Shown here piece by piece: positions 1 through 60,518 of a DNA stretch of 62,411 nucleotides. The notes beneath the pieces were generated by a model. It searched no databases. It was not told the origin of the DNA and saw nothing but the letters and a program-made list of their open reading frames with translations. Origin of the DNA: a bacterium (GTDB taxonomy: Bacteria > Verrucomicrobiota > Verrucomicrobiia > JADLBR01 > JAIBCM01). The translations under genes and the position numbers were made by a program. Every line of letters begins with the position of its first letter. The stretch's first letter is position 1. Where the stretch lies: contig JAIFLJ010000176.1 in the NCBI GenBank assembly GCA_020049135.1, positions 1 through 62,411 of the forward strand, in the 5' to 3' direction.

Positions 1-1
1 A

Positions 2-775: not shown

Positions 776-1016
776 TTGCAGTGAGGTTTTTAAAGAACAG
801 GTATGTCATCGCTCGATACTGGGTAGAAGAATGTCTCAGTTTTGAAGTGATTGATGGAGGTAAATTGACTTCCCGAAAATTAAGTGGAGCTTGAGGATTA
901 TTGTTTTGGATGCATGTGTGGGAGAGAGTTAATGGACAAACAGTTGACAGCAAGCAACATCATAAAAAACATATGGCATAAAATAACCTCAACTAAGTAG
1001 ATGTGGTTGAATATTA

Positions 1017-1574
1017 ATGCTATTGAAACAGAAAGAATTTGCATCTATGCTGAGTAAAGTGAAAATGGTTTTGTTATATATTGTGTATTTTTTTCAGTTT
1101 GGAAAAATAGAGTTGCCTGTTTATTTTTACAAAAACTATTTTATAGGAAATAGAAAAAAGATTTATTTTTCTCAGAAAGTTACCGTGCCAGAAAAGTGCT
1201 ATTTGTCGCCTTTAGAATTGTTTGTTGGCGAAAATACTTGGCTTGGGGTGAATTCTTTTATATGCGGCAAGGTTAAAATAGGGTCTAATGTTATGGTTGG
1301 ACCCAATGTAGCCATAACAGGTGCAAATCATAATATAGAAAAAGCAGATGTTCCGATGATAAATTCTGGAATCACAGTTAAAGGAATAATTATCGAAGAT
1401 GATGTTTGGATTGGAGCAAATGCAGTTGTGCTAGATGGGACTACAATTAAAAGAGGAGCAGTCATAGGTGCTGGATGTGTAGTCACAAAAGACATACCAG
1501 AATATGCCGTAGTCGTAGGAAATCCTGCTAAAATAATTAAATATAGAAATCATGACTGTTCGGTTACTGTATAA
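1017..1574 (+). CDS. Hexapeptide-repeat (left-handed beta-helix) sugar O-acetyltransferase
   Basis: Hexapeptide repeats [18 protein letters not shown] and [46 protein letters not shown], typical of LacA/MAT/WbbJ-type acetyltransferases. Confidence 0.8.
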
Positions 1575-1664
1575 ATGCCAACAAATCCCATGCATTTTAA
1601 AGAAGTAATGGTTGATTGTTCGTTTTTAAAAGATCAAAAACCGGAAATTAGATAATAAACTAAA

Positions 1665-2597
1665 ATGAATGTAAAAGTAAGCACAAGTTTTGCCTATCCT
1701 CCAATACTAAGACAAACACCTGGCGGAGAGGGTAAATGGAAAGACTCTATTTTTTTCATCAACCAGCCGGTAGAGACTTGTGATGCGTGGTTTGTTTATG
1801 ACGGGCTGACGGTGGAAGAGACAACAGTTTGTCCGCCTGACAGGGTCTCATTGATTGCCATCGAGCCGCCGAGTTTGAAACGGCATAACGCTCGTTGGCT
1901 CGAACAGTTTTCCAAAATAATCGGGTGGCAGACTTATTTTGATCCTAAAAAATCACATCTTTCCCATTGTGCTCCACCTTGGCTTGTAGGCAAAAGTTAC
2001 GACGAACTTATCGCTTCTGATTTTCCAGATAAAAGCCGGAGCCTTTCTGCTATCGTAAGCTCTAAGCAGGTGAATCGCGGGCACCGCAGGCGTTACCGTT
2101 TAGTCCGCGATTTGGCCGAGCGTATCCCCTCCCTAGATTTGTATGGTCGCGGCATACGGTCGCTCAACGATAAATGGGATGGGCTGGCCGATTACCGTTA
2201 CTCTATCGCAATCGAAAACGATTATCAGCCGCACTGGTGGTCGGAAAAGATAGCGGATTGTTTTTTGGCAGGGACAGTTCCGATTTATTATGGCTGTCCG
2301 AATATCGGGGACTATTTTCCAGAAAAATCATTTATTAATCTGGATGTTTCTAACGCGGAAGCTGCGGGCCGCCAAATACGGGGCATTTTGGAAAACGATA
2401 GTTACGAAAGTAGGCGGGAAGCCTTGGCTGAAGCCAAAAGACTCGTCCTTGAAAAATACAATCTGTTCAATCTCATGGCGGACTTTTGTTCACAGTGGGG
2501 GGACGGCATTGAGCGCAAGGAAATCCATCTGGTTCCAGAACCGCCACCTAGCAGATGGCTGGGGTATATGCGCAAGATAAAAGGGTGGTTTTACTGA
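1665..2597 (+). CDS. GT10-like glycosyltransferase (alpha-1,3/4-fucosyltransferase family)
   Basis: YRYSIAIENDYQPHWWSEKIADCFLAGTVPIYYG resembles the GT10 donor-binding motif (FENS..Y.TEK....G.VP.Y.G). Confidence 0.6.
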   Translation: MNVKVSTSFAYPPILRQTPGGEGKWKDSIFFINQPVETCDAWFVYDGLTVEETTVCPPDRVSLIAIEPPSLKRHNARWLEQFSKIIGWQTYFDPKKSHLSHCAPPWLVGKSYDELIASDFPDKSRSLSAIVSSKQVNRGHRRRYRLVRDLAERIPSLDLYGRGIRSLNDKWDGLADYRYSIAIENDYQPHWWSEKIADCFLAGTVPIYYGCPNIGDYFPEKSFINLDVSNAEAAGRQIRGILENDSYESRREALAEAKRLVLEKYNLFNLMADFCSQWGDGIERKEIHLVPEPPPSRWLGYMRKIKGWFY

Positions 2598-11787: not shown

Positions 11788-12201
11788 GTGTAGTAAGTAG
11801 AACGACAAAAGTCATGACGCACAAGTTCAGATTTCCTAACCCACGGGGCTGATTTTTTTAAAAAAGAGAATTGAGAATGGCACTTTTGGAGTGTGGATTG
11901 GGAAATCGGGCATGGTAGCACAGTGCGTCTCGCCTGTGTTCCAACAGACTCCAAAGCAGGGATGAATGCGGCTCCCTCAGAGCTGAAAAACGGATACCAA
12001 TGACTCAAAAGATTGTCGCACGACCTGCTAGGAAACGGGCAAAAAACATTTTATATTGGTAGAGACAGTTAATCAGTATAGCATCGCACTCAATAACAGA
12101 AATGGAAAAGAAGCCGACCATTAAAAACGGATAGGCAATCAGTTTTTTGTTGGATGAAAAATAAAAGTGTGACAGCATTAAATGTGAAATAAAGGAGAGC
12201 C

Positions 12202-12999
12202 ATGTTTAACTATTTGGAAAAAATAAAAGAAGCAGTCACCTCAGAGATTATAAAAAGAGGAAGACTCAAGCATGTTTTTAAAAATAAATTGACCAATTCA
12301 GGAAAAGATGATTTTAATTGGAAACACTACAATGATCATTATCAAGAGGAGTTAAGGGTCATTCAGCGCATATACTCACTTAAATTGAGTGAGGGAGATT
12401 ATGTGTTTGAAAAGGGTAGCCTAGCAAGATCAAAAGAAATTCTTCCTCTCCATCATAATCATAGGCTTTTGTATGAAACGATATGTTTGTTAAGTCCTTT
12501 AAGTGTGGCGGAGGTGGGTTGTGGGGGCGGGGACCATCTTTACAATCTTAGTGTGCTTATGCCGGAAACAAAATTAATTGGTTATGATCGTTCTCTCGAA
12601 CAGATAAGTTTTGCATTAGAACGATCGCCCAATTTAAGAGATAAACTATACGAATTTGACATGACAATGCCTTTCTCGGATGAGCTTAAGATATCCGACA
12701 TTGCTTATACCCAAGCGGTTATTATGCATATTAAAACAGGTAATGGTCATTTGGTTGCATTATCAAACATTTTTAAAATAGCTGCAAAGCAAGTGGTTTT
12801 GATGGAAAATTGGACACAGCATTCATTTTTCGATGATATCAAACTTCTTTTTAAGAAAAAAATGATTCCATGGAAACAAATATTTTTCTATTTCAGGAGA
12901 GCCCCAGAAAATAAAAACAAGCCTCATTTGATGGTGGTTTCATCAACACCCTTGTCTTTGGAACCTTTGGAGTCTTATTCGCAATTATTGTGTTTGTAA
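12202..12999 (+). CDS. Class I SAM-dependent methyltransferase (AT-rich cassette)
   Basis: Motif I VAEVGCGGGDHL. The gene is visibly AT-rich: spot counts of two 60-nt lines gave 27% and 35% GC. Confidence 0.7.
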   Translation: MFNYLEKIKEAVTSEIIKRGRLKHVFKNKLTNSGKDDFNWKHYNDHYQEELRVIQRIYSLKLSEGDYVFEKGSLARSKEILPLHHNHRLLYETICLLSPLSVAEVGCGGGDHLYNLSVLMPETKLIGYDRSLEQISFALERSPNLRDKLYEFDMTMPFSDELKISDIAYTQAVIMHIKTGNGHLVALSNIFKIAAKQVVLMENWTQHSFFDDIKLLFKKKMIPWKQIFFYFRRAPENKNKPHLMVVSSTPLSLEPLESYSQLLCL

Positions 13000-13043
13000 G
13001 CGTGTTTTGATGGTCAAGAAATGGGCGACATGAGAAGTCGGAT

Positions 13044-14845: not shown

Positions 14846-15227
14846 GTGAACGGAGACCAAGTTTTTGCATTTGAAAAATTGAGGGTTTGGGAAGAATCCA
14901 GAGCTTGGGTAAAAACGGTTTATCTGCTGACACAAAATTTTCCTGATCGTGAGAAATTTGGAATGGTGTCGCAGATTAATCGGGCTTCTATCTCGGTGCC
15001 CACCAATCTCGCCGAAGGCTCAGCAAAAAAAATCATTAAAGGATCAGGCTCATTTTACCAATTTAGCTTATTCACCTCTTATGGAATGTATGAACTTGTT
15101 GATTCTTGTTTTTGGCCAGAATTATTTTTCAGAAAAATGCTTGAAAGAACAGCGGAGCTTGATAAGGGGTCTTTCATTGCAGATGAACGCTCTTCACCAA
15201 TCGCAAGTCCAACGATCAGGACGCTAG
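14846..15227 (+). pseudogene. Four-helix-bundle protein (23S rRNA intervening-sequence protein family), frameshifted in an A8 run
   Basis: The N-terminal half (FEKLRVWEESRAWVKTVYLLTQNFPDREKFGMVSQINRASISVPTNLAEGSAKK) is in the frame of 14846. The C-terminal half (SLKDQAHFTNLAYSPLMECMNLLILVFGQNYFSEKCLKEQRSLIRGLSLQMNALHQS) is in the frame of ORF 14949..15227. The switch is at A8 (15025-15032), and removing one A restores a 126-aa protein. Confidence 0.7.
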
Positions 15228-15266
15228 ACTCAACTTTTAAACCTTTAAACTCTTCAACCTTTCTAT

Positions 15267-16370
15267 ATGGGGATATTTAATAAAAAAAGAGTGTTGGTGA
15301 CTGGTCACACGGGCTTCAAGGGCACATGGCTTTGCGAATGGCTTCTCTCTTTAGGCGCGGAGGTGGTCGGGCTTGCCTTGGATCCGCCCACGGAGCCTTC
15401 GTTGTTCAATCAAATTGGGCTGGGAGGACGGCTCCAAGATATTCGCGGGGATATCCGTGATTCAGAAGGGGTGAAAAAAACAGTTTTAGAAATTGCACCA
15501 GATTTTATATTTCATCTCGCCGCCCAACCACTGGTGCGCGAGTCATATCAAAAGCCAGTGGAAACTTACGAGACGAATGTCATGGGCACTGTTCATGTTC
15601 TTGAAGCTTTGCGAGCCTATGAAGGTTCTTGCGTGGCGATCATGATCACCACGGACAAGTGTTACGAAAACAGGGAATGGATGCATGGCTATCGGGAGGA
15701 AGATCCACTTGGGGGCTATGATCCTTACAGCTCCAGCAAAGCCGCAGCGGAGATTGTGGTGGCGGCTTATCGGAGATCTTTTTTTAAAGAGGGAAAAAAA
15801 GCGGTCGCCAGTGCGCGTGCTGGGAATGTGATTGGTCCTGGAGACTGGGCCAAAGATCGCATTGTGCCCGATTGCGTCAGGGCACTCCAACAAAAAGAAG
15901 TGGTTCAAGTGAGGAATCCTCATGCTACCCGTCCTTGGCAGCATGTGCTAGAACCTTTGGGAGGATACCTTTCTCTTGCGGCGCATTTGAGCGATTCTCT
16001 TTCTAAAGGGGATCACGCCAAGTTGTCTGGGTTAGCTTCCGCTTTCAATTTTGGACCCAACGCAGAATCGAATCGCCCTGTTCGATGTTTGGTGGAAGAA
16101 ATCCTGCACCACTGGCCTGGGCAGTGGAAAGACACTTCAGACCCTCGTTCTGTGCATGAGGCCAGCTTGCTTCACTTGACTATTGATAAGGCTCGTCATT
16201 TGCTTGGCTGGCATCCCGCTTGGAATTTTCAGGAGACGATTCAAAAAACGGCAGAAGGTTATCAGGTACTTTATCGAGAAACCGCTCAGGAAGCCTGTCG
16301 CCAAATGGTGCTTGGGCAGATCCGGGAATACCAACAGAAGTCCAATCTGGTATTCAGGGAAGACGGTTGA
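15267..16370 (+). CDS. rfbG: CDP-glucose 4,6-dehydratase
   Basis: KRVLVTGHTGFKGTWLCEWLLSLGAEVVG and YSSSKAAAE (YxxxK), an RfbG-type extended SDR. Confidence 0.9.
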   Translation: MGIFNKKRVLVTGHTGFKGTWLCEWLLSLGAEVVGLALDPPTEPSLFNQIGLGGRLQDIRGDIRDSEGVKKTVLEIAPDFIFHLAAQPLVRESYQKPVETYETNVMGTVHVLEALRAYEGSCVAIMITTDKCYENREWMHGYREEDPLGGYDPYSSSKAAAEIVVAAYRRSFFKEGKKAVASARAGNVIGPGDWAKDRIVPDCVRALQQKEVVQVRNPHATRPWQHVLEPLGGYLSLAAHLSDSLSKGDHAKLSGLASAFNFGPNAESNRPVRCLVEEILHHWPGQWKDTSDPRSVHEASLLHLTIDKARHLLGWHPAWNFQETIQKTAEGYQVLYRETAQEACRQMVLGQIREYQQKSNLVFREDG

Positions 16371-16417: not shown

Positions 16418-16657
16418 ATGAAGACCATTACGGCCACAAACGCCAACCGACATTTCCAAAAGGTTTTGAGGGAGGTTTCTCGTGGAGAAGTTTTTACCGT
16501 TCTTTCACGGGGCAAAAAGGTGGCGTCCATTGTGCCAGCATCCCAAGAAGCCGAAAGGAGGCGGGAATCGGCCAAACATTCCCTGCTGAAAAGGCTTGCT
16601 GGGGAAAAAATGGTTTTGGGAGTTTCTTGGAATCGTGATGAGCTTTATGATCGTTAA
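16418..16657 (+). CDS. Phd/YefM-like antitoxin of a VapBC-type pair
   Basis: MKTITATNANRHFQKVLREVSRGEVFTVLSRGKKVASIVP. It lies immediately upstream of a PIN gene. Confidence 0.7.
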   Translation: MKTITATNANRHFQKVLREVSRGEVFTVLSRGKKVASIVPASQEAERRRESAKHSLLKRLAGEKMVLGVSWNRDELYDR

Positions 16658-16707: not shown

Positions 16708-17163
16708 ATGCGAGTTGCTCTTGACACGAATATTCTGGCCTACGCCGAAGGGATTAACGATTCTGCGCGATGTATTCATGCCAGAAAAATTATAGAAAGA
16801 CTTTCAGAAATTGAAACAATGATTCCCGCCCAAGTTTTGGGAGAACTTTTTCGTGTGCTTGCCAGAAAGGCGGGTCGGGAGGTGGGGGCGGCTCGCCAGG
16901 CTGTGCTTTCATGGGCAGATAGCTTTCTTGTTGTGGATTCTACTTGGGATAGTTTCGTTATGGCGTTCGATTTGGTTGAGACGCAATCCATGAGCTTTTG
17001 GGACGCTTTGATTTTTTCTGTAGCTGTTAAGAATCGTTGTAGAATATTGTTGAGCGAAGATATGAAAACAGGTTTGACTTGGTGTGGAACCACCATCGTC
17101 AACCCATTTGCCGCCCCAGAGGATCCGCTCTTGAAGTTGGCGATGGAGAATGGATCGCTTTAA
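16708..17163 (+). CDS. vapC: PIN-domain toxin (VapC)
   Basis: MRVALDTNILAYAEG (first acidic residue) and FWDALIFSVAVKNRCRILLSEDM, typical PIN motifs. Confidence 0.8.
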   Translation: MRVALDTNILAYAEGINDSARCIHARKIIERLSEIETMIPAQVLGELFRVLARKAGREVGAARQAVLSWADSFLVVDSTWDSFVMAFDLVETQSMSFWDALIFSVAVKNRCRILLSEDMKTGLTWCGTTIVNPFAAPEDPLLKLAMENGSL

Positions 17164-17405
17164 CGAAGGTGAGAAAGGTGCTAGATCCTCGCTTTCTTGC
17201 GAAGAGCGTGAATGGTTACAGAGTGGGGAGGATCCGCGTAAATTGCTACAAAAGGCAACTCTGGAAAACTGGTTGGGCGGTCTTGAATCGTCGGAGACTT
17301 TTAAAGAAACGCCCGTTTTCATTCAGAAATCTTTGCGGCATGAATGGGATTGATTTTGTTTTCGACACCAATATCTTGTGGGTCATTAAAAAATGGAGGA
17401 ATTAA
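17150..17405 (+). pseudogene. Decayed second TA module: antitoxin-like ORF plus 21-aa PIN N-terminal stub
   Basis: ORF 17150..17353 overlaps by 14 nt a short ORF (ATG 17340) encoding MNGIDFVFDTNILWVIKKWRN-stop. FVFDTNIL is a PIN N-terminal signature, and the rest of the domain is missing. Confidence 0.3.
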
Positions 17406-20044: not shown

Positions 20045-22132
20045 ATGAGCGAATTAAAATCAGATGAGGTCGTTTCTCGTTTAAAAAAACTCAAAATTGG
20101 CTATGTGCCTTACAGCGAGAATTTGGACGCGCCTGGGGACAGGAGGCGTTTTGTCTATTACGCACGCAAAAATAATATTCCCTTTGAGGTGGCGGATCCG
20201 TCCAAGCGATACGATATCGTGATTCTTTCCGGATTTGCGGATTTGACCGTTTGGAGCAAATACCGTCGCGGCGTTCTGGTCTTTGATTTGATTGACTCTT
20301 ATCTGGACGAGTCCAACAACAGTTTCAAAGACACCTTTCGTGGGACGGCCAAGTGGATTTTGCGCAAACACAGATATTGGGAGATGGACTACAAAAAGAC
20401 CATCAAAGAGACCTTGTTGCAATGCCGTGCGGCCGTTTGTTGCACTGTGGAGCAGCAGCGCCTGATCAAAGAGTTTTGCCCCGAGGTGCATATCATTTTG
20501 GATATCCATAACAGCTCGACCAAGACCGTCAAAACGAGCTATGAGGCTTCTTCGCCTGTTTTCAATATCGTGTGGGAGGGGTTGCCTTACACGATGGAGA
20601 CCTTGAAGATTTTGAAAGGGCCTTTGGAAAAAATCCAAAAAACGCATCCGGTGGCTTTGCATATCATCACCGATTTGGAATATTACAAATACGCCAGAAC
20701 GGCGGGCAAAACGCTGACGCAAAAAGAAGCCGCCAAAATATTTGCCAACACCTTTTTATATTCGTGGAACGAATCCACGGTCTCTTCGATCATTACTTCT
20801 TGCGACATGGCGGTGATCCCGCTCCGCGCCAACAACGCGCTCGATTTTGGAAAACCAGAAAACAAACTGTTACTTTTTTGGCGGATGGGGATGCCTGTTT
20901 TGACATCGGATACACCTGCTTACACTAGGGCAATGGCTCGTTGTGGATCGGATATGGCCTGCGGAACAGAAGATGAGTGGGTGGAAAAACTGTTGCGCTA
21001 CATCATGAGCGCGGATGCCAGAAAAGAAGCTGCAGAAAAGGGTATGAGATATGCCTCAACAGAGCATGGAGAGGATGTCACTTTGGCGAGATGGGATAAA
21101 CTATTTTCCATATTTATGGAAAAAGGGGAAATAAATGGAAGGAGTGGCATTCATAATCCGCTTGTGGTAGAAAAGGATGTTCAAGAACCCGCATCTATTT
21201 ATGAGTTTGAAATCAGTAATAGTTTAAGGCAAAACATTGATGCACGCATTTATGATGAATGGAGAAGTCCATCATTTCGATCTGATTTGACTCCCAGGTT
21301 ATCGGTTGTGATGCCAATTTATAATGGTGAGAAATACCTAGCGGACTCTTTAAGAAGTCTCCTAGCGCAGTCTTTTGAAGATTTCGAGGTTGTTTTGGTT
21401 GACGATGGTTCGAGGGATCGTGGACCAGAAATTGTAAAATCTTTCAGCAATATTCCGATTAAGATGGTGAAGCAGATAAACGGCGGAATCGGTTCCGCAC
21501 TGAGAACTGGGTGTCAAATTGCGCGGGCAGAGTGGATTGCTCGAATGGATCAGGATGATGTTGCATTGCCAGATAGATTTCTAAAGCAAATGGCTTACCT
21601 TGAAAAAAATCCTAAAATTGGTTTGCTAGGAACAGGAGTGATTGAAATTAATAGTTTCGGAGAGGAGACAGGAAAATATATATTTCCATCAGAGAATGAT
21701 GACATAAAAAGATTGCTCATAGTCAGAAATATGTTTTTGCATCCAACAACTATTTTCAAGAAATCTATTTATGAGGAAGTCGGTGGTTACAGTTTGAACA
21801 GGGATATGCCTGAGGATTGGGATTTGTGGATTAGAATGATTGATAAGACGCAAGTGGCAAACCTGAGCGAATGCCTTTTGATGTATAGAAGACACGATAA
21901 ATCCATATCTATAGTGCGTGCCAGACATTATCAGTTTCAGGGTATTAAATTGAGGGGGAGAGCGATTCTTGAAGGTCGTTACTCTTTTTACAATTTAATT
22001 TATATCATATTTGCTTTACTGGGTTTGATTCTGCCAATGAACATAGTAGCTATGATCAGGAAGCGGATTCACAAACATTACCACTTTTATCCTAGCCGTG
22101 ATTTTCGATCAAATGATAAACCTCTGAAATGA
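20045..22132 (+). CDS. Two-domain glycosyltransferase: N-terminal GT-B-like domain fused to an AT-rich C-terminal GT2 domain with a terminal TM helix
   Basis: The N-terminal part has KPENKLLLFWRMGMPVLTSDTPAY. The C-terminal part has LSVVMPIYNGEKYLADSLRSLLAQSFEDFEVVLVDDGSRD and ARMDQDDVALPDRFLKQMAYLEKNPKIGLLGT (paralogous to 6317..7333). The C-terminal helix is FYNLIYIIFALLGLILPMNIVAMI. Confidence 0.7.
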   Translation: MSELKSDEVVSRLKKLKIGYVPYSENLDAPGDRRRFVYYARKNNIPFEVADPSKRYDIVILSGFADLTVWSKYRRGVLVFDLIDSYLDESNNSFKDTFRGTAKWILRKHRYWEMDYKKTIKETLLQCRAAVCCTVEQQRLIKEFCPEVHIILDIHNSSTKTVKTSYEASSPVFNIVWEGLPYTMETLKILKGPLEKIQKTHPVALHIITDLEYYKYARTAGKTLTQKEAAKIFANTFLYSWNESTVSSIITSCDMAVIPLRANNALDFGKPENKLLLFWRMGMPVLTSDTPAYTRAMARCGSDMACGTEDEWVEKLLRYIMSADARKEAAEKGMRYASTEHGEDVTLARWDKLFSIFMEKGEINGRSGIHNPLVVEKDVQEPASIYEFEISNSLRQNIDARIYDEWRSPSFRSDLTPRLSVVMPIYNGEKYLADSLRSLLAQSFEDFEVVLVDDGSRDRGPEIVKSFSNIPIKMVKQINGGIGSALRTGCQIARAEWIARMDQDDVALPDRFLKQMAYLEKNPKIGLLGTGVIEINSFGEETGKYIFPSENDDIKRLLIVRNMFLHPTTIFKKSIYEEVGGYSLNRDMPEDWDLWIRMIDKTQVANLSECLLMYRRHDKSISIVRARHYQFQGIKLRGRAILEGRYSFYNLIYIIFALLGLILPMNIVAMIRKRIHKHYHFYPSRDFRSNDKPLK

Positions 22133-22344
22133 TCTGTTTTATGTGCGCATGTCCTGTGGTGGAGCCCGATGATGTGGAGGGGATCGCGAGAACCCTAGAA
22201 GATTTGTTTGTGAAATGGCAAAAGGGCGTTTTGAAAGTCTCCGATGCTTTTGGTTCCGTAGCCGCAGATTACAGCATAGAGAAGACAACGGGCAAACTTC
22301 ACGAGCTTTTGGAAGAGGTTAGCTGTTTGAAGCATGGAAGATAA
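22129..22344 (+). pseudogene. C-terminal relic of a GT4-type glycosyltransferase
   Basis: The 71-aa product (..VVEPDDVEGIARTLEDLFVKWQ...AADYSIEKTTGKLHELL) looks like only the last ~60 residues of a GT4 enzyme. There is no catalytic region. Confidence 0.45.
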
Positions 22345-22350
22345 AAAATT

Positions 22351-23451
22351 ATGAAAGGGGCGATTGACAGGATTCAGGTCAGCGGGTTCAAGTCTATTCG
22401 CCAAGCGGATGTCCGTTTGAATGCGCTTAATGTGCTCATCGGGGCAAACGGCGTAGGCAAATCTAATTTTATTGGTCTTTTCAAACTGCTCCGAAACATC
22501 ATCGAACGCCGATTGCAGGTTTATGTGGGTGCGTCAGGGGGGGCGGGAAGCCTGCTCCATTTTGGCCGAAAAAAAACATCGGCCATGAAAATCGAACTCA
22601 CCTTCTCAGACGCTACGAACGGTTATCTTTGCCAACTCATGGGCACGGATGAGGATTTGCTTTTTTTTGCCGAAGAGGAAACTTGGTTTCACGACAAGGA
22701 GAAGCATGAGAAGACTTGCCCATCAAGGCTCGGGAGTGGACACAGAGAAACGCGTTTGGTTGATGATCAAGGTATCCCCCTGAGGGGCGTTGCCGAACAT
22801 GTGTTCGAAGTCATGCGAAGCTGGCGAACCTACCACTTTCACGATACCAGTCCAGAAGCTAAAATGAAGCAATCCTGCGAGTTGCACGACAACCGCAGTT
22901 TCAAGGGCGATGCCTCCAATCTTGCCGCATTTCTCTATTTCTTGCGCGAGAAGCACGCTTCGCACTACAGGAACATTATTGACGCGGTCCGCATGATGGC
23001 TCCTTGCGTGGATGATTTTATTTTGGAGCCGCTCGCATTAAACCAGAACATGATCCGGTTGGAGTGGAAGGAAAAGGGGAGCGACCATGTGTTTGGTCCC
23101 GGAGCTCTTTCTGACGGCACGCTTCGCTTTATTTGTCTTGCCGCCCTCCTTCTCCAACCGAATTTGCCCAGCACGATACTTCTTGATGAGCCAGAGTTGG
23201 GTTTGCACCCTTACGCCATAGTGCTTTTGTCCGAATTACTTCGTGGGGCAGCCACTAAAACGCAGGTGATCGCTTCTACGCAATCAACCGGCCTCGTCAA
23301 TCAGTTTGAGCCCCAAGATATTATCGTCGTCGAACGGGAAGCTGGCCAAAGCATCTTTAAGCGTCTCGACAAAAACTCCATGGAGAATTGGCTTGAAGAC
23401 TATGGGTTGGGCGACCTTTGGGAAAAAAACCTGCTTGGAGGACGCCCGTGA
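22351..23451 (+). CDS. ABC/SMC-like ATPase (AAA_21/AAA_15-type, OLD/AriA/RloA-like)
   Basis: Walker A GANGVGKSN, signature-like LSDGTLRF and Walker B ILLDEPELGLHP. There is no TM or substrate-binding domain. Confidence 0.8.
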   Translation: MKGAIDRIQVSGFKSIRQADVRLNALNVLIGANGVGKSNFIGLFKLLRNIIERRLQVYVGASGGAGSLLHFGRKKTSAMKIELTFSDATNGYLCQLMGTDEDLLFFAEEETWFHDKEKHEKTCPSRLGSGHRETRLVDDQGIPLRGVAEHVFEVMRSWRTYHFHDTSPEAKMKQSCELHDNRSFKGDASNLAAFLYFLREKHASHYRNIIDAVRMMAPCVDDFILEPLALNQNMIRLEWKEKGSDHVFGPGALSDGTLRFICLAALLLQPNLPSTILLDEPELGLHPYAIVLLSELLRGAATKTQVIASTQSTGLVNQFEPQDIIVVEREAGQSIFKRLDKNSMENWLEDYGLGDLWEKNLLGGRP

Positions 23452-24116
23452 GTTTCCGCAAAATATTGATCCTTGTGGAGGGGCAAACGGAAGAAAGTTT
23501 TGTTAAGAGTGTTCTCGCGGCATCCATGCCTGAAGGCCTCTATTTGCAACCGGTTATCGTGGCGACAAAGCGGGTAAATTCAGGCGGCAAATTTAAAGGC
23601 GGGGTGCCCGGTTATCCGAAAGTGCGCGGAGAGGTGATGCGTCTTTTGGCGGATTCTAGCGCGGTGGCGGTCACGACGATGTTGGACTATTACGCGCTTC
23701 CCGATTCTTTTCCTGGAAGAAGTCAACCGCTAGGAATTACGGCCTGCGCGAAAGTTAGCCATGTGGAGGCGGCGTGGTTTGCTGATATTGGCGATGAGCG
23801 TTTTCGCGCCTATTTGTCGCTGCATGAATTTGAGGCCTTGTTGTTTTCGGAGACAGCCACCATCGCCGATGCGTTTGCGAAGCCCGAACTCGCTTTGGGG
23901 CTGGCAAATATCCGCTCTTCGTTTCCTACGCCTGAAGAGATCAACGACGGTCCAGAAACAGCCCCATCAGCCCGCCTTGAAACTCTCTATCCGCGATACA
24001 ACAAACCGCTGTTTGGCACACTCGTCGCCCAACGCATTGGAATCGAAAAAATGGTGAAGGAATGCCCGCATTTTGCCGGCTGGGTGGGTTTTTTGAAATC
24101 ATTAGGCAGCGGTTAG
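23448..24116 (+). CDS. DUF4276-like small protein (putative nuclease partner of the ATPase)
   Basis: GTGA-coupled start. It has N-terminal ILILVEGQTEESFVKSVL (EGxxE acidic motif), DYYALPDSFP, HEFEALLF and PEEINDGPETAPSARL, a pattern I recognise as DUF4276. Confidence 0.6.
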   Translation: MSFRKILILVEGQTEESFVKSVLAASMPEGLYLQPVIVATKRVNSGGKFKGGVPGYPKVRGEVMRLLADSSAVAVTTMLDYYALPDSFPGRSQPLGITACAKVSHVEAAWFADIGDERFRAYLSLHEFEALLFSETATIADAFAKPELALGLANIRSSFPTPEEINDGPETAPSARLETLYPRYNKPLFGTLVAQRIGIEKMVKECPHFAGWVGFLKSLGSG

Positions 24117-24271
24117 AAAGTTTTATGGAAGATAGAGAGCAAAGACGAGTGGATGACTTTGCTCCCTTTTACTGGATCAGGGCAAGGAACCTGCTTTTAT
24201 TGGCGGTTTGCCTTTGGGGTTACGCCAGCTACAGATGGGTCGAGAGGGGAAAACGAAAGGTTTGGTAGAAG

Positions 24272-26246: not shown

Positions 26247-27437
26247 ATGAACAGAACCCCTTCTCCTATCCGCGTTGTTCGAGTGATTGCTAGGCTGAAC
26301 ATCGGGGGGCCCGCCCTGCATGTGACTTTGCTGAACGAAGGTTTGAACCGAAAGGGCTACGAGACTTGGCTGGTGTGTGGAAATGTGTCGAAGACGGAAG
26401 GAGACTCCCTTTTGCTTGCGAGAGAAAAACAAATCAGAACAGTGGTGTTGGAGGATTTGGGGAGGGAAATTTCTCTTTTTAAAGATGTCGGGGTCATTTT
26501 AAAACTTTGGAAGATTTTTCGGGAATGCCGACCGCATATTGTTCACACTCATACGGCCAAAGCGGGTTTTGTGGGCAGGGTTGCCGCCTTGTTGGCTGGG
26601 ACGCCTGTGGTCATGCACACCTTTCACGGGCATGTTTTTCATAGCTATTTTGGCCCGTTGAAGACGGCTTTTTTCAAAACGCTCGAACGCATTTGCGCAT
26701 GCTGGACGGATGCGGTGATCGTGATCAGCGAAAGGCAGAAAAAAGAAATCGCCTCTTTTCATATTTGCCCCGAAAAAAAAATGGAGGTCGTGCCGCTCGG
26801 CTTGGATCTCGACAGGTTTGACAAAACGCCGAGAGGAAACGGCTCTTTTCGTCATTCATGTGGCGTGGAAAACGGCGTTCGGCTGATCGGGATCATCGGG
26901 CGGATTGTTCCCGTGAAAAGGCACGATCTTTTTGTGGCGGCAGCAGCGAGACTTGTTGCTGCGGGTGGTGCTGCGTGGCGGTTCGTCGTGGTGGGGGATG
27001 GCGAAGAGCGGTGTGCGATAGAAAAGATGTTGGAAAATGAGGGGTTAGCGAAGCACTTTATTTTGACTGGCTGGAGGCGGGACTTAGAAGCGATCTATTC
27101 TGATTTGGATGTTTCAGTGATTTGCTCGGACAACGAAGGGACGCCTGTCTCTTTGGTAGAGTCAATGTCATCGGGATGTCCTGTGGTTTCAACGGCTGTG
27201 GGGGGTGTGGCTGATTTGTTGGGCGATGGGATATTTGGTAGGCTGTGTCCACCGGGAGACTCGGTTGCGCTGGCAAAAAAAATAGAGGAGGTTTTCTTGG
27301 ATGCGGATGGAACGAGAGAAAAAGTTTCTTTAGCAAAAAGCCATGTTTTGGAAAAATATGCTGCATCTAGGTTGGTGGAAGATGTGGATCGGCTATGTCG
27401 AAGAGTATTGAAGGAAAAAGGTTTATTGCCTAATTGA
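26247..27437 (+). CDS. GT4 glycosyltransferase
   Basis: RVIARLNIGGPALHV and SDNEGTPVSLVESMSSGCPVVSTAVGGVADLL. Confidence 0.8.
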   Translation: MNRTPSPIRVVRVIARLNIGGPALHVTLLNEGLNRKGYETWLVCGNVSKTEGDSLLLAREKQIRTVVLEDLGREISLFKDVGVILKLWKIFRECRPHIVHTHTAKAGFVGRVAALLAGTPVVMHTFHGHVFHSYFGPLKTAFFKTLERICACWTDAVIVISERQKKEIASFHICPEKKMEVVPLGLDLDRFDKTPRGNGSFRHSCGVENGVRLIGIIGRIVPVKRHDLFVAAAARLVAAGGAAWRFVVVGDGEERCAIEKMLENEGLAKHFILTGWRRDLEAIYSDLDVSVICSDNEGTPVSLVESMSSGCPVVSTAVGGVADLLGDGIFGRLCPPGDSVALAKKIEEVFLDADGTREKVSLAKSHVLEKYAASRLVEDVDRLCRRVLKEKGLLPN

Positions 27438-42197: not shown

Positions 42198-42213
42198 TCG
42201 GGGGTTGAATTTT

Positions 42214-44088
42214 ATGCCAGCTCTCCATGCACCAGACGAGAAGCCAGTGAAAACTTTTTTCCAAAAGCTCTGGGGGCTTTTATCACCGAAGGAAAAAAAA
42301 TACGCTATCCTGCTTTTTATGGTCTATATCCCAGCGGCGTTTACCGAAGTCGGTGGGATAGCCTCTGTCATGCCGTTTCTGGGGGCGGTTGCCAACCCGA
42401 ACCTCGTCCGCCAAAACGCATGGATGAAAGAGATGTATCAGACGATGGGTTTTACGGAGATACGATACTTTCTCCTTTTTCTCGGTCTGTCGGTGTTGAT
42501 AATACTTCTCGTTTCTAATGCGCTCCTGACGCTCTCGACATGGTTGACGCAGCGGTACTGTTGGAAAGTCAATCACCAGCTTTCCCAGCGCCTTTTTCAC
42601 CGCTACCTGCAAATGCCGTACAGTTTTTACCTCACGATCAACACCTCGTCTCTGGCCAAAGGTGTCCTGACAGAGAGCACTAACTTGATCGGCAATGTGC
42701 TGATGCCAGTGTTGGACATAAGTGCCAAAGCATTGATCTGTATTTCAGTTTTCGTTTGCCTGCTTCTTGTGGATGCCAAACTCGCCGTAGTTGTGATGGC
42801 GGTTTTAGGGGGCGCGTACGCCATGGTTTATAAAAGCGTTAGGTGGCGTCTCACTCGTGCAAGTGAGGAGATCGTCAGCCGCAACAGCGACCGTTACAGA
42901 GTTGTTTCGGAGGCGTTCGGCGGTATAAAAGAAGTCAAACTAAAACATGCCGAGGAACATTTTCGCGCAATATTTTGTGGCTCGTCGCGGGCGTATTGCA
43001 AAGAGATTGCCGTCCATGAAGTGATCAGCCGCTGCACTAGGCACTTCATAGAATCCATAGCCTTTGGTGGCATACTCATCATCGTCCTCTACCTCCTCTT
43101 TACCAACTCACTGCTGAACGCCATACCGATCATCGGTATTTACGCTTTTGCTGCATATCGAGTGCTACCATCGCTCCAGCAGATGTTCATCGGCATGACC
43201 AAAATTCGCTCCCACCAAGCTATACTCAACATCGTCTCGGACGAACTCTCTAGGCCAGTGGATCGGTATCAGTTTTCTGCCGTGCGTTTGGCGTCGTCGG
43301 AGCAGCTAGTTTTCCAAGAGCATATAGAGCTAGAAAATATAGCGTTCAGCTATCCATCTTCAGAGCAGTTTTTCATTCGTGAAGCGAGCCTAGTCATCCC
43401 TAAAAATAGTCGAGTAGCCATTGTTGGGCGGACTGGCGCAGGAAAAACCACGCTGGTTGATATTATTCTCGGCCTACTGCACCCGCAGACTGGGCGGATT
43501 TTGGTGGATGGTGTGGAGGTGGAGCCGCACAATCTGCGTGCATGGCAGAAAAAAATTGGCTGTGTCCCCCAGCATTTCCACCTTTGCGATGACACTGTTT
43601 TGCGCAACATCGCTTTTGGTGTGTCCGATGCCGATATAGACCACGCCCGTGTGGAGTCCGCTGCGAAACTCGCAAGCATACACCAGTACATTATGAGCGA
43701 TTTACCAAGCCAGTACGATTCGTTGTTAGGGGAAAAAGGATTGCGCCTGAGCGGCGGGCAGAGGCAGAGGATAGCGATAGCTAGGGCACTTTACAGGCAG
43801 CCAGAGGTGCTGGTGTTCGATGAGGCTACCAGCGCACTCGACTCGATGACGGAAGACTTGATTTTGGATGCGATCGAACAGCTTGGCAAAAGCCACACGA
43901 TAATAACTATCGCACACCGCATGAGCACGCTGAAAGTATGCGACCTCGTTGTTTTCATGGAGAAGGGCAAACTAGTCGCATCGGGCACATACGAAAAACT
44001 CTACAAAGAATGTGCTGGATTCAGGGATCTTGCATCCGCTTCGTGGAAAGCTAATGAGGCCATTCAGGTGTTAGATGAAAGAAGTTGA
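42214..44088 (+). CDS. Fused TMD-NBD ABC exporter (MsbA/PglK-like)
   Basis: About 6 N-terminal TM helices, Walker A GRTGAGKTT, signature LSGGQRQRIAIARAL and Walker B LVFDEATSALD. Confidence 0.85.
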   Translation: MPALHAPDEKPVKTFFQKLWGLLSPKEKKYAILLFMVYIPAAFTEVGGIASVMPFLGAVANPNLVRQNAWMKEMYQTMGFTEIRYFLLFLGLSVLIILLVSNALLTLSTWLTQRYCWKVNHQLSQRLFHRYLQMPYSFYLTINTSSLAKGVLTESTNLIGNVLMPVLDISAKALICISVFVCLLLVDAKLAVVVMAVLGGAYAMVYKSVRWRLTRASEEIVSRNSDRYRVVSEAFGGIKEVKLKHAEEHFRAIFCGSSRAYCKEIAVHEVISRCTRHFIESIAFGGILIIVLYLLFTNSLLNAIPIIGIYAFAAYRVLPSLQQMFIGMTKIRSHQAILNIVSDELSRPVDRYQFSAVRLASSEQLVFQEHIELENIAFSYPSSEQFFIREASLVIPKNSRVAIVGRTGAGKTTLVDIILGLLHPQTGRILVDGVEVEPHNLRAWQKKIGCVPQHFHLCDDTVLRNIAFGVSDADIDHARVESAAKLASIHQYIMSDLPSQYDSLLGEKGLRLSGGQRQRIAIARALYRQPEVLVFDEATSALDSMTEDLILDAIEQLGKSHTIITIAHRMSTLKVCDLVVFMEKGKLVASGTYEKLYKECAGFRDLASASWKANEAIQVLDERS

Positions 44089-60507: not shown

Positions 60508-60518
60508 GAAACCACCCC

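What the first reader, a model, noticed from the sequence alone, without database searches (positions are those of the whole stretch)
22129..24268. ABC-type ATPase + DUF4276-like two-gene module inserted in the glycan locus beside a glycosyltransferase relic: candidate uncharacterised defence system
What the sequence shows:
- A 366-aa soluble ATPase with Walker A GANGVGKS, an SMC/RecF-like LSDGTLRF signature and Walker B ILLDEPELGLHP.
- A GTGA-coupled 222-aa protein that opens with ILILVEGQTEESF and carries DYYALP and HEFEALLF. I recognise this pattern as DUF4276.
- Neither protein has any sugar-metabolism signature.
- Immediately upstream lies a 71-aa ORF that looks like only the C-terminal tail of a GT4 enzyme. 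This suggests the pair landed in and destroyed a glycosyltransferase gene.

Established knowledge: ATPase plus small nuclease pairs of this shape underlie OLD-family nucleases, Gabija GajA, PARIS (AriA ATPase + AriB DUF4435/Toprim), AbiL and RloAB.

Inference: this is a split OLD/PARIS-like abortive-infection or anti-phage module. As far as I know the DUF4276 partner has no experimentally defined mechanism.
Basis: partly seen in the sequence, partly recalled or inferred. Interest (0 to 1): 0.75.

Follow-up and report, generated by a model that had tools for sequence, protein, structure and literature searches.

The report
HEC-01 ATPase–Toprim defence gene pair
Two overlapping genes for an ABC-type ATPase and a DUF4276 (Toprim-like) nuclease sit between two sugar genes of a bacterial surface-glycan locus; they are a clear member of HEC-01, an already catalogued and very common candidate anti-phage system, so this is an ordinary example of a known kind with an unsolved mechanism.

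Summary
There is a 366-aa ATPase at 22351-23451 and a 222-aa DUF4276 protein at 23448-24116, joined by a GTGA overlap, and every quoted motif is present.

The pair is not new. It matches PADLOC's HEC-01A and HEC-01B models full-length (E 1.8e-147 and 5.7e-69). HEC-01 is a published ABC-ATPase + Toprim candidate defence system. One E. coli study found no protection; another found protection against at least one of T7, T5 and T4.

Structure models (pLDDT about 90) support these assignments:
- The ATPase has an SMC/PtuA/OLD-like ABC head.
- The closest folds to DUF4276 are OLD Toprim regions and RloB, but the scores are weak.

Homologues number in the thousands. They occur as the same two-gene unit in unrelated contexts, including plasmids and helicase-methylase systems.

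The 71-aa ORF is indeed the C-terminal tail of a GT4 glycosyltransferase, but the pair did not destroy that gene:
- The pair starts 6 nt after the tail's intact stop codon.
- Full-length relatives of that GT4 are followed directly by AsnB and then another GT4, so the pair lies in the old GT4|AsnB spacer.
- The GT4 was truncated at its 5' side, at a sharp base-composition break with a low-GC GT2 segment.

The mechanism (ATPase sensor controlling a Toprim nuclease) is inferred by analogy only. Verdict: new member of a known kind, low interest.

The parts
22351..23451 (+). HEC-01A: a soluble 366-aa ABC-type (SMC/OLD/PtuA-like) ATPase. Its motifs are Walker A G31-S38, signature S254-D255-G256, Walker B/catalytic D279-E280, and Q311 at the H-loop position. 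It ends in an invariant C-terminal tail.
   Evidence: PADLOC PDLC04175 HEC-01A, E 1.8e-147, residues 3-366 on profile positions 4-362 of 363. Pfam AAA_21, E 2.6e-29. AF2 model pLDDT 90.5. Foldseek against PDB: SMC heads E 1.4e-14 with TM 0.59-0.67, then PtuA, retron PtuA, OLD and GajA. Invariant motif residues come from a 44-sequence alignment.
23448..24116 (+). HEC-01B: a 222-aa DUF4276 protein, predicted to be a Toprim-like nuclease. Its GTG start overlaps the ATPase stop (GTGA). Invariant acidic residues are E11, E15, E16, D69, D80, E127, E163 and D167.
   Evidence: Pfam DUF4276, E 8.3e-46. PADLOC PDLC04188 HEC-01B, E 5.7e-69. AF2 model pLDDT 90.2. Foldseek top PDB hits are OLD C-terminal Toprim regions 6njv and 6nk8 (E ~2e-3, prob 0.92-0.99, TM 0.34-0.48). 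The top BFVD hit is an RloB-like protein (E 4.1e-4, prob 1.0).
22129..22344 (+). Context, not part of the system: a 71-aa ORF that is the 3' relic (last ~60 codons) of a GT4 glycosyltransferase gene. Its own stop codon is intact.
   Evidence: phmmer hits to residues ~350-415 of ~415-aa GT4 proteins. tblastn of 13 such proteins matches only 22120/22150-22338 in the window. BLASTP against the window's own GT4 tail gives E 0.009.
24117..24271 (.). 155-nt spacer between the DUF4276 stop and the AsnB start. Together with the 6 nt at 22345-22350, it is what remains of the GT4|AsnB intergenic region.
   Evidence: DNA homology to other HEC-01 loci ends at 24098-24103 and begins at 22345-22350. No promoter or terminator signal above chance. 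No flanking repeats beyond chance length.
21101..22132 (+). Context: the low-GC (GC3 0.35) segment encoding the GT2 half of the 695-aa glycosyltransferase. Its 3' end coincides with the truncation point of the GT4 relic.
   Evidence: Composition profile. GC3 by gene. Pfam Glycos_transf_2 at residues 420-577.

Best explanation
The two genes are a stand-alone copy of HEC-01, a widespread two-gene cassette that moves as a unit. It consists of a compact ABC (SMC/OLD-type) ATPase and a DUF4276 Toprim-like nuclease. This copy sits in the spacer between a GT4 gene (now truncated by a separate event) and asnB, inside a long + strand surface-glycan operon. It takes no part in glycan synthesis.

Most likely mode of action, inferred by analogy with PARIS, OLD/Gabija and Septu:
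1. The ATPase forms an ATP-dependent oligomer that holds or gates the nuclease.
2. It senses a phage-derived cue, such as a phage protein, a nucleic-acid structure or a change in nucleotide levels.
3. The metal-dependent Toprim nuclease is then released or activated. Its likely catalytic residues are E11 with E15/E16, D80 and E127/E129.
4. The nuclease cuts DNA or tRNA and stops phage replication, possibly at the cost of the cell.

Shown here: family membership, folds, intact and invariant motifs, cassette-like distribution, and position in the GT4|AsnB spacer.
Inferred: anti-phage function of this particular copy, physical complex formation, the trigger, and the nuclease substrate.
For: Membership:
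- Full-length, top-ranked PADLOC hits to HEC-01A (1.8e-147) and HEC-01B (5.7e-69). The next non-HEC systems are far weaker: PDC-M07A 7e-28, AriA 4e-27, AbiLi 1e-22, mad3 3e-22.
- Pfam AAA_21 and DUF4276.

Folds:
- The ATPase model matches SMC head, PtuA, OLD and GajA at E 1e-14 to 1e-11. A sequence profile hits OLD 6p74 at 3e-12. hhalign to P2 Old's ATPase gives 97% probability.
- For the DUF4276 model, four of the six best PDB hits are OLD Toprim regions, and the best viral hit is RloB-like.
- Its LVEGQTE motif is the same as LVEGKTE at P2 Old residues 395-401.

Intact machinery: the Walker A, signature, Walker B and acidic Toprim residues are invariant across 44-45 homologues of 54-78% identity, and all are present in this copy.

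Unit behaviour:
- The nearest homologues keep the order of the two genes, with a 4-nt overlap in four of the five metagenomic contexts looked at and a 4-nt gap in the fifth (L179).
- Their surroundings are unrelated: a truncated HsdR, a toxin-antitoxin island, housekeeping genes, and a prophage edge. They also sit on two plasmids, in one of them between an SNF2 helicase and a methyltransferase.
- DNA homology to those loci covers only 22345-24103, i.e. the two ORFs.

Not a glycan gene:
- None of 80 other AsnB glycan loci carries either gene.
- Relatives with the full-length GT4 have the order GT4-AsnB-GT4 with 36-105-nt spacers.

Literature:
- HEC-01 was defined as an ABC ATPase + TOPRIM pair with an OLD-like metal site.
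- One HEC-01 protected E. coli B against at least one of T7, T5 and T4.
- DUF4276 was placed in the Toprim superfamily and equated with Mad4.
Against: - The first experimental test of a HEC-01 found no protection against any phage tested. The positive report gives no fold-reduction or mutant controls for HEC-01 in the text I could read.
- The Toprim assignment from my own model is weak. No PDB hit reaches E <= 0.001, TM is at most 0.48, there is no PDB sequence hit, and hhalign to the P2 Old Toprim is not significant (probability 1.7%).
- The canonical DxD is not kept. This clade has D80-Y/F-Y.
- The H-loop histidine is replaced by an invariant Gln, so ATP turnover may differ from OLD and Gabija.
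- This copy is not in a defence island or embedded in an Hma/RM system. Its composition matches the backbone (GC3 0.55-0.57).
- No empty site was found. All public contigs come from one near-identical population, so insertion is inferred from distant comparisons only.
- No DUF4276 was found in 50,697 phage records, unlike PARIS and Old.
Confidence: 0.72

Rival explanations
1. The pair is mainly a selfish addiction or stabilisation module, behaving like a toxin-antitoxin system. The nuclease would be the toxin and the ATPase its antidote or regulator. It persists in the glycan locus and on plasmids because losing it is harmful, not because it blocks phage.
For: - Pfam itself labels AAA_21 as a 'putative AbiEii toxin, Type IV TA system'.
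- The same glycan operon already carries a Phd/PIN toxin-antitoxin pair.
- Homologues sit beside VapBC on a 10.9-kb plasmid and within a DUF433/UPF0175 toxin-antitoxin island.
- One test found no phage protection.
Against: - A HEC-01 did protect against at least one phage.
- HEC-01 was discovered by recurrent embedding inside Hma defence systems, and one copy lies between an SNF2 helicase and a methyltransferase.
- Addiction and abortive infection are not mutually exclusive.
Confidence: 0.13
2. The pair is a DNA-repair or recombination accessory comparable to RecF (ABC ATPase) with RecR (Toprim-domain protein). It would act on host DNA lesions rather than on invaders.
For: - The ATPase gives weak N-terminal hits to RecF, SMC_N and RecN.
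- The domain pairing of an ABC ATPase with a Toprim protein formally mirrors RecF/RecR (established knowledge).
- Several homologues lie among housekeeping genes.
Against: - The distribution is sporadic and cassette-like, with unrelated neighbours. The pair also occurs on plasmids.
- It is absent from 80 comparable glycan loci.
- RecF scores 24 bits against a cut-off of 172.
- The best structural and sequence relatives of both proteins are defence nucleases (OLD, PtuA, RloB), not RecR.
Confidence: 0.05
3. The ATPase and its partner work in the glycan pathway, for example as the ATPase of an O-antigen or capsule ABC exporter, or as a chain-length or regulatory factor. They would therefore belong to the locus.
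For: - Same strand and tight spacing within the operon: 6 nt upstream and 155 nt downstream.
- No promoter or terminator of their own above chance.
- Backbone-like composition.
- Present on every contig of this population.
Against: - No transporter family passes its cut-off: ABC_tran scores 21 bits against 25, and NCBIfam transporter models score 15-28 bits against cut-offs of 190 or more.
- There is no adjacent membrane partner. A genuine ABC exporter with transmembrane domains lies at 42205-44088.
- The pair is absent from 80 other AsnB loci and from the GT4-AsnB-GT4 relatives.
- The same cassette occurs in non-glycan contexts.
Confidence: 0.02

Closest known systems
HEC-01 (Hma-embedded candidate 01; PADLOC-DB v2; Payne et al., bioRxiv 10.1101/2024.01.29.577857)
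   Same: Both proteins match the HEC-01A and HEC-01B profiles end to end. They share the same two-gene order, the ABC ATPase + TOPRIM-like architecture and the sizes (about 366 and 220 aa).
   Different: This copy is not embedded in an Hma, RM or BREX system. It stands alone inside a surface-glycan operon. It is 76-78% identical to its nearest known relatives.
MADS Mad3-Mad4 (methylation-associated defence system)
   Same: Mad3 is an AAA_15/21 ABC ATPase, and Mad4 is described as a DUF4276 homologue (PMC12065111, PMC11464382). The domain pairing is the same.
   Different: The NCBIfam MAD3 equivalog scores 108 bits against a cut-off of 420. There is no Mad4 hit for the partner. No methyltransferase or other mad genes are nearby.
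PARIS (AriA ABC ATPase + AriB DUF4435 Toprim)
   Same: Split ATPase/Toprim-nuclease logic. The ATPase belongs to the same AAA_15/21 radiation. PARIS is the best available mechanistic model: an ATPase scaffold releases a Toprim nuclease on sensing a phage protein, and the nuclease cuts tRNA.
   Different: The partner is DUF4276, not DUF4435, and has no AriB hit. The ATPase (366 aa) is smaller than AriA (464-residue chains in PDB entries 8ux9 and 8v45). The AriA hit comes only from a generic AAA_21-type model. No copies were found in phage records.
OLD family nucleases and Gabija GajA (class 1 and 2 OLD)
   Same: They are the closest solved relatives of both halves. The ATPase profile hits Ts OLD 6p74, the DUF4276 model hits Bp and Xcc OLD Toprim regions, and the LVEGxTE motif is shared with P2 Old.
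   Different: OLD and GajA fuse the ATPase and Toprim in one polypeptide, whereas here they are two genes. There is no GajB-like helicase. The H-loop His is replaced by Gln, and DxD is reduced to a single Asp.
RloA/RloB and AbiL (AbiLi/AbiLii)
   Same: Two-gene systems of an AAA_21 ATPase plus a small Toprim-like partner, often embedded in type I RM loci. The best viral structural match to the DUF4276 model is an RloB-like protein.
   Different: The partner belongs to a different Pfam family (DUF4276, not RloB). The AbiLi hit (1e-22) is about 125 orders of magnitude weaker than the HEC-01A hit.
Septu / retron PtuA
   Same: PtuA is among the top structural matches to the ATPase model (E ~3e-14).
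   Different: PtuA's partner is the HNH nuclease PtuB, not a Toprim protein. The NCBIfam PtuA model scores 19 bits against a cut-off of 500.

Membership tests
HEC-01 (PADLOC candidate system) | Protein A matches a HEC-01A profile | tested here: met
   PDLC04175, E 1.8e-147, 489 bits, residues 3-366 on profile positions 4-362 of 363. The eight best hits are all HEC-01A models.
HEC-01 (PADLOC candidate system) | Protein B matches a HEC-01B profile | tested here: met
   PDLC04188, E 5.7e-69, residues 3-219 on profile positions 12-226 of 230. All five PADLOC hits for this protein are HEC-01B models.
HEC-01 (PADLOC candidate system) | Genes A and B adjacent on the same strand | tested here: met
   A-then-B on the + strand with a 4-nt GTGA overlap. 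The same order and 4-nt overlap occur in four of the five nearest-homologue contexts; in L179 the two genes are 4 nt apart.
HEC-01 (PADLOC candidate system) | Embedded within an Hma or other multi-gene defence system (the basis of its discovery, not a detection rule as far as I know) | tested here: not met
   The neighbours are glycan genes: a GT2 fusion, a GT4 relic, AsnB and GT4. A plasmid homologue is embedded between an SNF2 helicase and a methyltransferase.
HEC-01 (PADLOC candidate system) | Anti-phage activity | not testable with these tools
   The literature is mixed: no protection in one study and protection against at least one of T7, T5 and T4 in another. This particular copy is untested.
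ABC ATPase (SMC/Rad50/OLD clade) | Walker A, ABC signature and Walker B with a catalytic Glu | tested here: met
   In 44 homologues, G31/N33/G34/G36/K37, S254-D255-G256 and D279-E280 are all invariant, and all are present here.
ABC ATPase (SMC/Rad50/OLD clade) | H-loop histidine | tested here: not met
   T310-Q311-S312 is invariant. Where P2 Old has STHS, this clade has STQS.
ABC ATPase (SMC/Rad50/OLD clade) | ABC head fold | tested here: met
   AF2 model pLDDT 90.5. Foldseek finds SMC heads 4i99 and 5h68 at TM 0.59-0.67 (E 1e-14 to 1e-11), plus PtuA, OLD, Rad50, RecN and GajA.
Toprim superfamily (for the DUF4276 protein) | Three-layer alpha/beta fold with a four-stranded parallel core | tested here: inconclusive
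   The model (pLDDT 90.2) has beta-alpha units at 4-10/13-26, 31-37/56-67 and 72-80/99-114, plus a short fourth strand. Four of the six best PDB matches are OLD Toprim regions, but at E ~2e-3 and TM 0.34-0.48. The best viral match is RloB-like at E 4e-4. I had no access to coordinates to check strand order. The literature asserts membership.
Toprim superfamily (for the DUF4276 protein) | Conserved Glu at the end of beta1 | tested here: met
   E11 is invariant at the end of strand 4-10. The motif LVEGQTE matches LVEGKTE at P2 Old 395-401. E15 and E16 are also invariant, giving the ExxxE spacing seen in OLD (that comparison rests).
Toprim superfamily (for the DUF4276 protein) | DxD motif after beta3 | tested here: not met
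   D80 is invariant at the end of strand 72-80 but is followed by Y/F81 and Y82 (D-Y-Y) with no second Asp. Further invariant acidic residues (E127, and E129 at >=90%) follow the fourth strand.
MADS (Mad3/Mad4) | Mad3 equivalog score and a Mad4 match, with a methyltransferase and other mad genes nearby | tested here: not met
   NF047739 MAD3 scores 108 bits against a cut-off of 420. The partner has no NCBIfam hit. PADLOC mad3 gives only 2.7e-22, and the partner has no mad4 hit. No methyltransferase of the DNA-modification type is adjacent.
PARIS (AriA/AriB) | AriB: a DUF4435-type Toprim partner | tested here: not met
   The partner hits only DUF4276 in Pfam and only HEC-01B in PADLOC. The AriA hit (4.3e-27) spans a 304-position model with the same coordinates as the Pfam AAA_21 match (26-317 on 1-304 of 304).
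OLD / Gabija GajA | ATPase and Toprim fused in one polypeptide (plus the GajB helicase for Gabija) | tested here: not met
   There are two separate ORFs. The Old and GajA models match only the short Walker A or Walker B stretches. No UvrD-like gene is adjacent.

The most novel reading that the evidence does not exclude
The placement may not be accidental. This surface-glycan operon encodes a likely phage receptor, and it has collected three non-sugar modules on the same strand: a 23S-IVP four-helix protein, a Phd/PIN pair, and HEC-01. HEC-01 may be co-transcribed with the glycan genes, so that receptor synthesis and an abortive-infection nuclease are expressed together.

In addition, the HEC-01A clade has an invariant Gln in place of the H-loop His and an invariant C-terminal peptide (LWEKNLLGGRP). 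This might mark a slow-hydrolysing ATP switch that gates the DUF4276 nuclease in a way different from PARIS or OLD.
Probability: 0.1. Interest if true: 0.5.

Novelty: new member of a known kind. Interest (0 to 1): 0.2.

Why it matters
It matters little as a discovery. HEC-01 is already in PADLOC, and a cold-seep survey ranked it among the 12 most abundant system types. My searches found more than 4,000 homologues of the DUF4276 protein and at least 8,000 of the ATPase.

Three points have some residual value:
- No biochemical mechanism, trigger or substrate is known for any DUF4276 nuclease, and the two phage tests disagree. Any well-behaved HEC-01 pair is therefore a reasonable subject for mechanistic work.
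- This locus gives a clean example of a defence-type cassette sitting in an intergenic spacer of a glycan operon, next to a toxin-antitoxin pair. That bears on how variable glycan loci collect mobile modules.
- The analysis corrects the tempting inference that the cassette destroyed the neighbouring glycosyltransferase.

Tried and rejected
- **Empty site in related genomes.** The genome-contig scan with AsnB found nothing closer than 55% identity. The metagenome-contig scan with the 695-aa GT found nothing above 32%. Exact-protein look-ups for the ATPase and AsnB returned only contigs of one near-identical population (0-5 SNPs over up to 21 kb), each contig carrying the pair as far as it reaches. 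No empty site was obtained. The insertion is inferred from the distant GT4-AsnB-GT4 loci.
- **Assembly breaks.** Breaks inside the DUF4276 gene in two samples looked like possible strain heterogeneity. The contig ends differ from the window by at most 2 SNPs, so this was rejected as evidence of presence/absence variation.
- **Signs of insertion.** No flanking direct or inverted repeats or target-site duplication: only 10-24-nt imperfect matches of chance quality. No integrase or transposase nearby.
- **Own promoter or terminator.** Nothing above the shuffled expectation.
- **Compositional anomaly of the pair.** None: GC 0.514 and GC3 0.55-0.57, the same as the backbone. The anomaly belongs to the neighbouring GT2 segment.
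- **A travelling small ORF.** I asked whether the 71-aa ORF is a third component that moves with the cassette. There is no similarity to the 66-aa ORF that precedes a close homologue, and no DNA homology outside the two ORFs. Rejected.
- **A split GT4.** I asked whether the N-terminal half of the 695-aa GT is the missing front of the relic GT4. tblastn with 13 full-length GT4 relatives finds no match there. Rejected.
- **Sequence-level link of DUF4276 to solved structures.** None at E <= 10 that means anything. hhalign to P2 Old aligned only the 12-residue LVEGxTE stretch and was not significant.
- **Organism identification.** The class I fumarase is at most 73% identical to anything else, and the nearest named hits are split between Desulfobacterota-type and Verrucomicrobiota MAGs. 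No tRNA genes in the window. Left unresolved.
- **Supplementary data.** The cold-seep paper's supplementary data (which HEC-01 was tested, and the fold protection) are not held.
- **Complex prediction.** Not possible with the tools at hand.

Full report
**1. What is there**

The + strand between 22129 and 24268 holds three real ORFs:
- a 71-aa ORF at 22129-22344, whose ATG overlaps the TGA of the upstream 695-aa glycosyltransferase gene;
- a 366-aa ORF at 22351-23451;
- a 222-aa ORF at 23448-24116.

The GTG start of the 222-aa ORF overlaps the TGA of the 366-aa gene (cccGTGAgtt). Homologues begin at the same position, so the GTG is preferred to the upstream TTG at 23418.

The 68-aa ORF at 24062-24268, which the finding's coordinates include, is probably not a gene. 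It overlaps the DUF4276 3' end in another frame, has no family hit, and is not called on any public contig.

**2. Family assignment**

- Pfam gives AAA_21 for the ATPase (E 2.6e-29), with weaker AAA_15, SMC_N and DUF2813 N-terminal hits. It gives DUF4276 for the partner (E 8.3e-46, whole profile).
- PADLOC is decisive. The ATPase matches HEC-01A model PDLC04175 end to end (E 1.8e-147), and the partner matches HEC-01B model PDLC04188 (E 5.7e-69).
- The best non-HEC systems are about 120 orders of magnitude weaker: PDC-M07A, AriA, AbiLi, mad3, Old and GajA.
- NCBIfam's MAD3 equivalog scores 108 bits against a cut-off of 420, and the partner has no NCBIfam hit.

**3. What the literature says**

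- HEC-01 is one of nine 'Hma-embedded candidates' described by Payne et al. It was described as an ABC ATPase with a TOPRIM protein. Its predicted metal site resembles that of Burkholderia OLD.
- When expressed in E. coli MG1655 ΔRM, it protected against none of the phages tested (bioRxiv 10.1101/2024.01.29.577857).
- A later survey of cold-seep genomes listed HEC-01 among the 12 most abundant system types. It reported that one representative protected E. coli B against at least one of T7, T5 and T4 (PMC12881386). The text I could read gives no fold values or mutants for HEC-01.
- DUF4276 has been placed in the Toprim superfamily and equated with Mad4 of the MADS system (PMC12065111). The PARIS paper groups MADS3-4 and AbiL with the ABC-ATPase + Toprim systems (PMC11464382).
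- So the pair is catalogued and its fold class is published. No trigger, substrate or biochemical activity is known.

**4. My own structural and motif checks**

*ATPase*
- The AlphaFold2 model (44-sequence alignment, pLDDT 90.5) matches SMC head domains at TM 0.59-0.67 (E 1e-14 to 1e-11). It also matches Septu and retron PtuA, Thermus OLD, Rad50, RecN and GajA.
- A sequence profile finds OLD 6p74 first (E 3e-12), then PtuA, SMC3, GajA and AriA. hhalign to P2 Old's ATPase gives 97% probability.
- Walker A (G31-K37), signature (S254-D255-G256) and Walker B/catalytic Glu (D279-E280) are invariant across homologues of 55-78% identity.
- Unusually, the H-loop position is an invariant Gln (STQS, against STHS in P2 Old).
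- The last 13 residues (GLGDLWEKNLLGGRP) are almost all invariant. The GGAGGA of the two Gly codons also serves as a Shine-Dalgarno sequence for gene B.

*DUF4276 protein*
- The model (pLDDT 90.2) has alternating beta-alpha units.
- Four of its six best PDB matches are the C-terminal Toprim regions of Xanthomonas and Burkholderia OLD. The scores are weak (E ~2e-3, TM 0.34-0.48).
- The best match among viral models is an RloB-like protein (E 4e-4, prob 1.0).
- No solved structure is detectable by sequence.
- Invariant residues include E11 at the end of beta1. Its motif LVEGQTE is the same as LVEGKTE at P2 Old 395-401, although that hhalign is not significant.
- E15/E16, D80 at the end of beta3, H126-E127 after the fourth strand, E163 and D167 are also invariant.
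- The canonical DxD is not kept (D-Y-Y).
- I therefore rate Toprim membership as likely but only partly verified here.

**5. The pair behaves as a two-gene cassette**

- The DUF4276 search returned 4,100 proteins at E <= 1e-5. The ATPase search saturated at 8,000.
- The nearest relatives are 76-78% identical for both proteins in parallel, so the two genes are inherited together.
- The five nearest metagenomic contexts looked at keep the gene order, four of them with the 4-nt overlap and one (L179) with a 4-nt gap. Their surroundings are unrelated:
  - directly after a truncated 351-aa HsdR fragment, beside mobile-element genes;
  - in a DUF433/UPF0175 toxin-antitoxin island next to rpsB-tsf;
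  - between a DUF4838 protein and a GATase1-like protein;
  - between a two-component system and an ECF sigma factor;
  - beside ffh and Mu-like prophage genes.
- Thirteen plasmids carry DUF4276 (33-41% identity). One has VapBC-ATPase-DUF4276 on a 10.9-kb MOBQ plasmid. Another has WYL-SNF2-ATPase-DUF4276-methyltransferase on an Aeromonas plasmid, which is the Hma-like embedding that gave HEC its name.
- None of 50,697 phage records carries it.
- DNA similarity (~70%) between the window and the five metagenomic loci runs at most from 22345/22350 to 24098/24103. That is the two ORFs and nothing else.

**6. Relation to the glycan locus**

- Roughly the first 47 kb of the window is a + strand glycan cluster. 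It holds an NDP-sugar nucleotidyltransferase, dehydratases and epimerases, C-methyltransferases, GT2 and GT4 enzymes, AsnB, a WecA/WbpL-type transferase, a UDP-sugar dehydrogenase and an ABC exporter.
- None of 80 AsnB-containing loci from other species has the ATPase, the DUF4276 protein or the relic. So the pair is not a conserved part of such loci.
- I could not find an empty site in a close relative. The only contigs with these exact proteins come from one population with 0-5 SNPs.

**7. The glycosyltransferase relic**

- The 71-aa ORF matches residues ~350-415 of ~415-aa GT4 proteins.
- tblastn with 13 of those proteins finds only 22120/22150-22338 in the whole window. The first ~350 codons are gone, and no fragment lies downstream of the pair.
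- The relic keeps its stop codon, and the ATPase gene begins 6 nt later.
- Two independent full-length relatives are each followed by an AsnB gene after 36-105 nt. In one of them another GT4 follows the AsnB directly; in the other a methyltransferase gene lies between them (P0253 and P0250). That AsnB is the best match in each locus to the window's AsnB (38%).
- The window has the same order (GT4 tail, AsnB, GT4) with the pair in between. The pair therefore occupies the former GT4|AsnB spacer.
- The truncation lies at the relic's 5' end, exactly where GC3 jumps. GC3 is 0.35 in the GT2-encoding half of the 695-aa gene (21101-22129). It is 0.52-0.57 in the relic, ATPase, DUF4276 and AsnB.
- The likeliest history is that a low-GC GT2 segment replaced the front of the GT4, independently of the pair.

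**8. Mechanism**

Nothing here or in the literature shows how HEC-01 works. The best-supported model comes from the nearest characterised systems: PARIS, OLD/Gabija and Septu.
- The ABC ATPase oligomerises and binds the nuclease.
- A phage cue changes its nucleotide state or assembly.
- The Toprim nuclease is freed or switched on and cuts DNA or tRNA.

The invariant catalytic residues in both proteins argue that both activities are under selection. The Gln-for-His H-loop suggests slow hydrolysis, meaning a switch rather than a motor. That is my inference only.

Rival explanations:
- an addiction module (0.13);
- a RecF/RecR-like repair pair (0.05);
- a glycan-pathway role (0.02).

**9. Verdict**

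The module type is right. The novelty claim is outdated, and the claim that the pair destroyed the glycosyltransferase gene is wrong.
- Novelty: new member of a known kind.
- Interest: low (0.2). What remains comes mainly from the unsolved biochemistry of DUF4276 and from the neat example of selfish and defence modules accumulating inside a glycan operon.

Noticed in passing
window 16418-16657 and 16708-17163 (+): A Phd/YefM antitoxin and PIN-domain toxin pair sits between sugar-nucleotide genes of the same glycan operon (PIN Pfam E 2.7e-12). It is followed by an unannotated 67-aa ORF at 17150-17353.
   Followed up: partly
window 14846-15280 (+): A 144-aa '23S rRNA intervening sequence protein' (four-helix-bundle family PF05635, from the precomputed Pfam hits) lies between the nucleotidyltransferase and dehydratase genes. 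With the Phd/PIN pair and HEC-01, that makes three non-sugar modules in one glycan locus.
   Followed up: no
window 20045-22132 (+): The 695-aa glycosyltransferase is compositionally chimeric. Its N-terminal GT-B-like half has GC3 0.57, and its C-terminal GT2 half (from about 21100) has GC3 0.35. The low-GC segment ends exactly where the GT4 relic begins. This suggests a cassette replacement that fused a foreign GT2 domain and deleted the front of the GT4.
   Followed up: partly
window 23278-23286 (ATPase residues 310-312) and 23410-23451 (C-terminal tail): The HEC-01A clade has an invariant Gln (STQS) where ABC ATPases, including P2 Old (STHS), have the H-loop His. It also has an almost invariant C-terminal peptide, GLGDLWEKNLLGGRP, that AF2 leaves disordered (pLDDT < 50 for residues 361-366). 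The GGAGGA Gly codons double as the ribosome-binding site of gene B.
   Followed up: partly
window 23571-23597 (DUF4276 residues 42-50): The Lys/Gly-rich loop KRVNSGGKFKGG between beta2 and alpha2 contains several invariant residues (T40, G46, G51, G52). It is the only low-confidence segment of the model (pLDDT < 50). It could be a nucleic-acid-binding or partner-binding loop.
   Followed up: no
L172 5852-8660 and L173 3259-6067: The closest non-identical HEC-01 pair (76-78% identity) starts with a 4-nt overlap directly after a truncated 351-aa HsdR N-terminal fragment (HSDR_N/ResIII). So in that locus too, the cassette abuts a broken gene, this time a type I restriction gene.
   Followed up: no
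L181 (Aeromonas media plasmid pMC64A, record 109993-116042): A more distant pair (41% identity) lies in the order WYL protein, SNF2-related helicase, AAA ATPase, DUF4276, site-specific DNA methyltransferase, flanked by IS elements. This is a plasmid-borne example of the helicase-methylase embedding after which HEC systems were named.
   Followed up: no
window 26247-27437 and 60168-61661 (+): Two GT4 glycosyltransferases give borderline hits to PF20706 'GT4-conflict' (family 4 glycosyltransferase in conflict systems). One is a weak precomputed hit; the other scores 26.2 bits against a cut-off of 26.
   Followed up: no
window 1-2000, 12001-13000 and 21100-22130: Three markedly low-GC stretches (0.35-0.40, against about 0.50 for the rest) lie within the glycan cluster. 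This is typical of horizontally exchanged serotype-specific genes.
   Followed up: no
window 52662-54281 (-): The class I fumarate hydratase is at most 73% identical to any other protein in the 5.8-billion-cluster collection. Its nearest named hits are split between Syntrophobacteraceae/Desulfobacterota and Opitutaceae/Verrucomicrobiota MAGs. The source organism has no close sequenced relative and could not be placed.
   Followed up: partly
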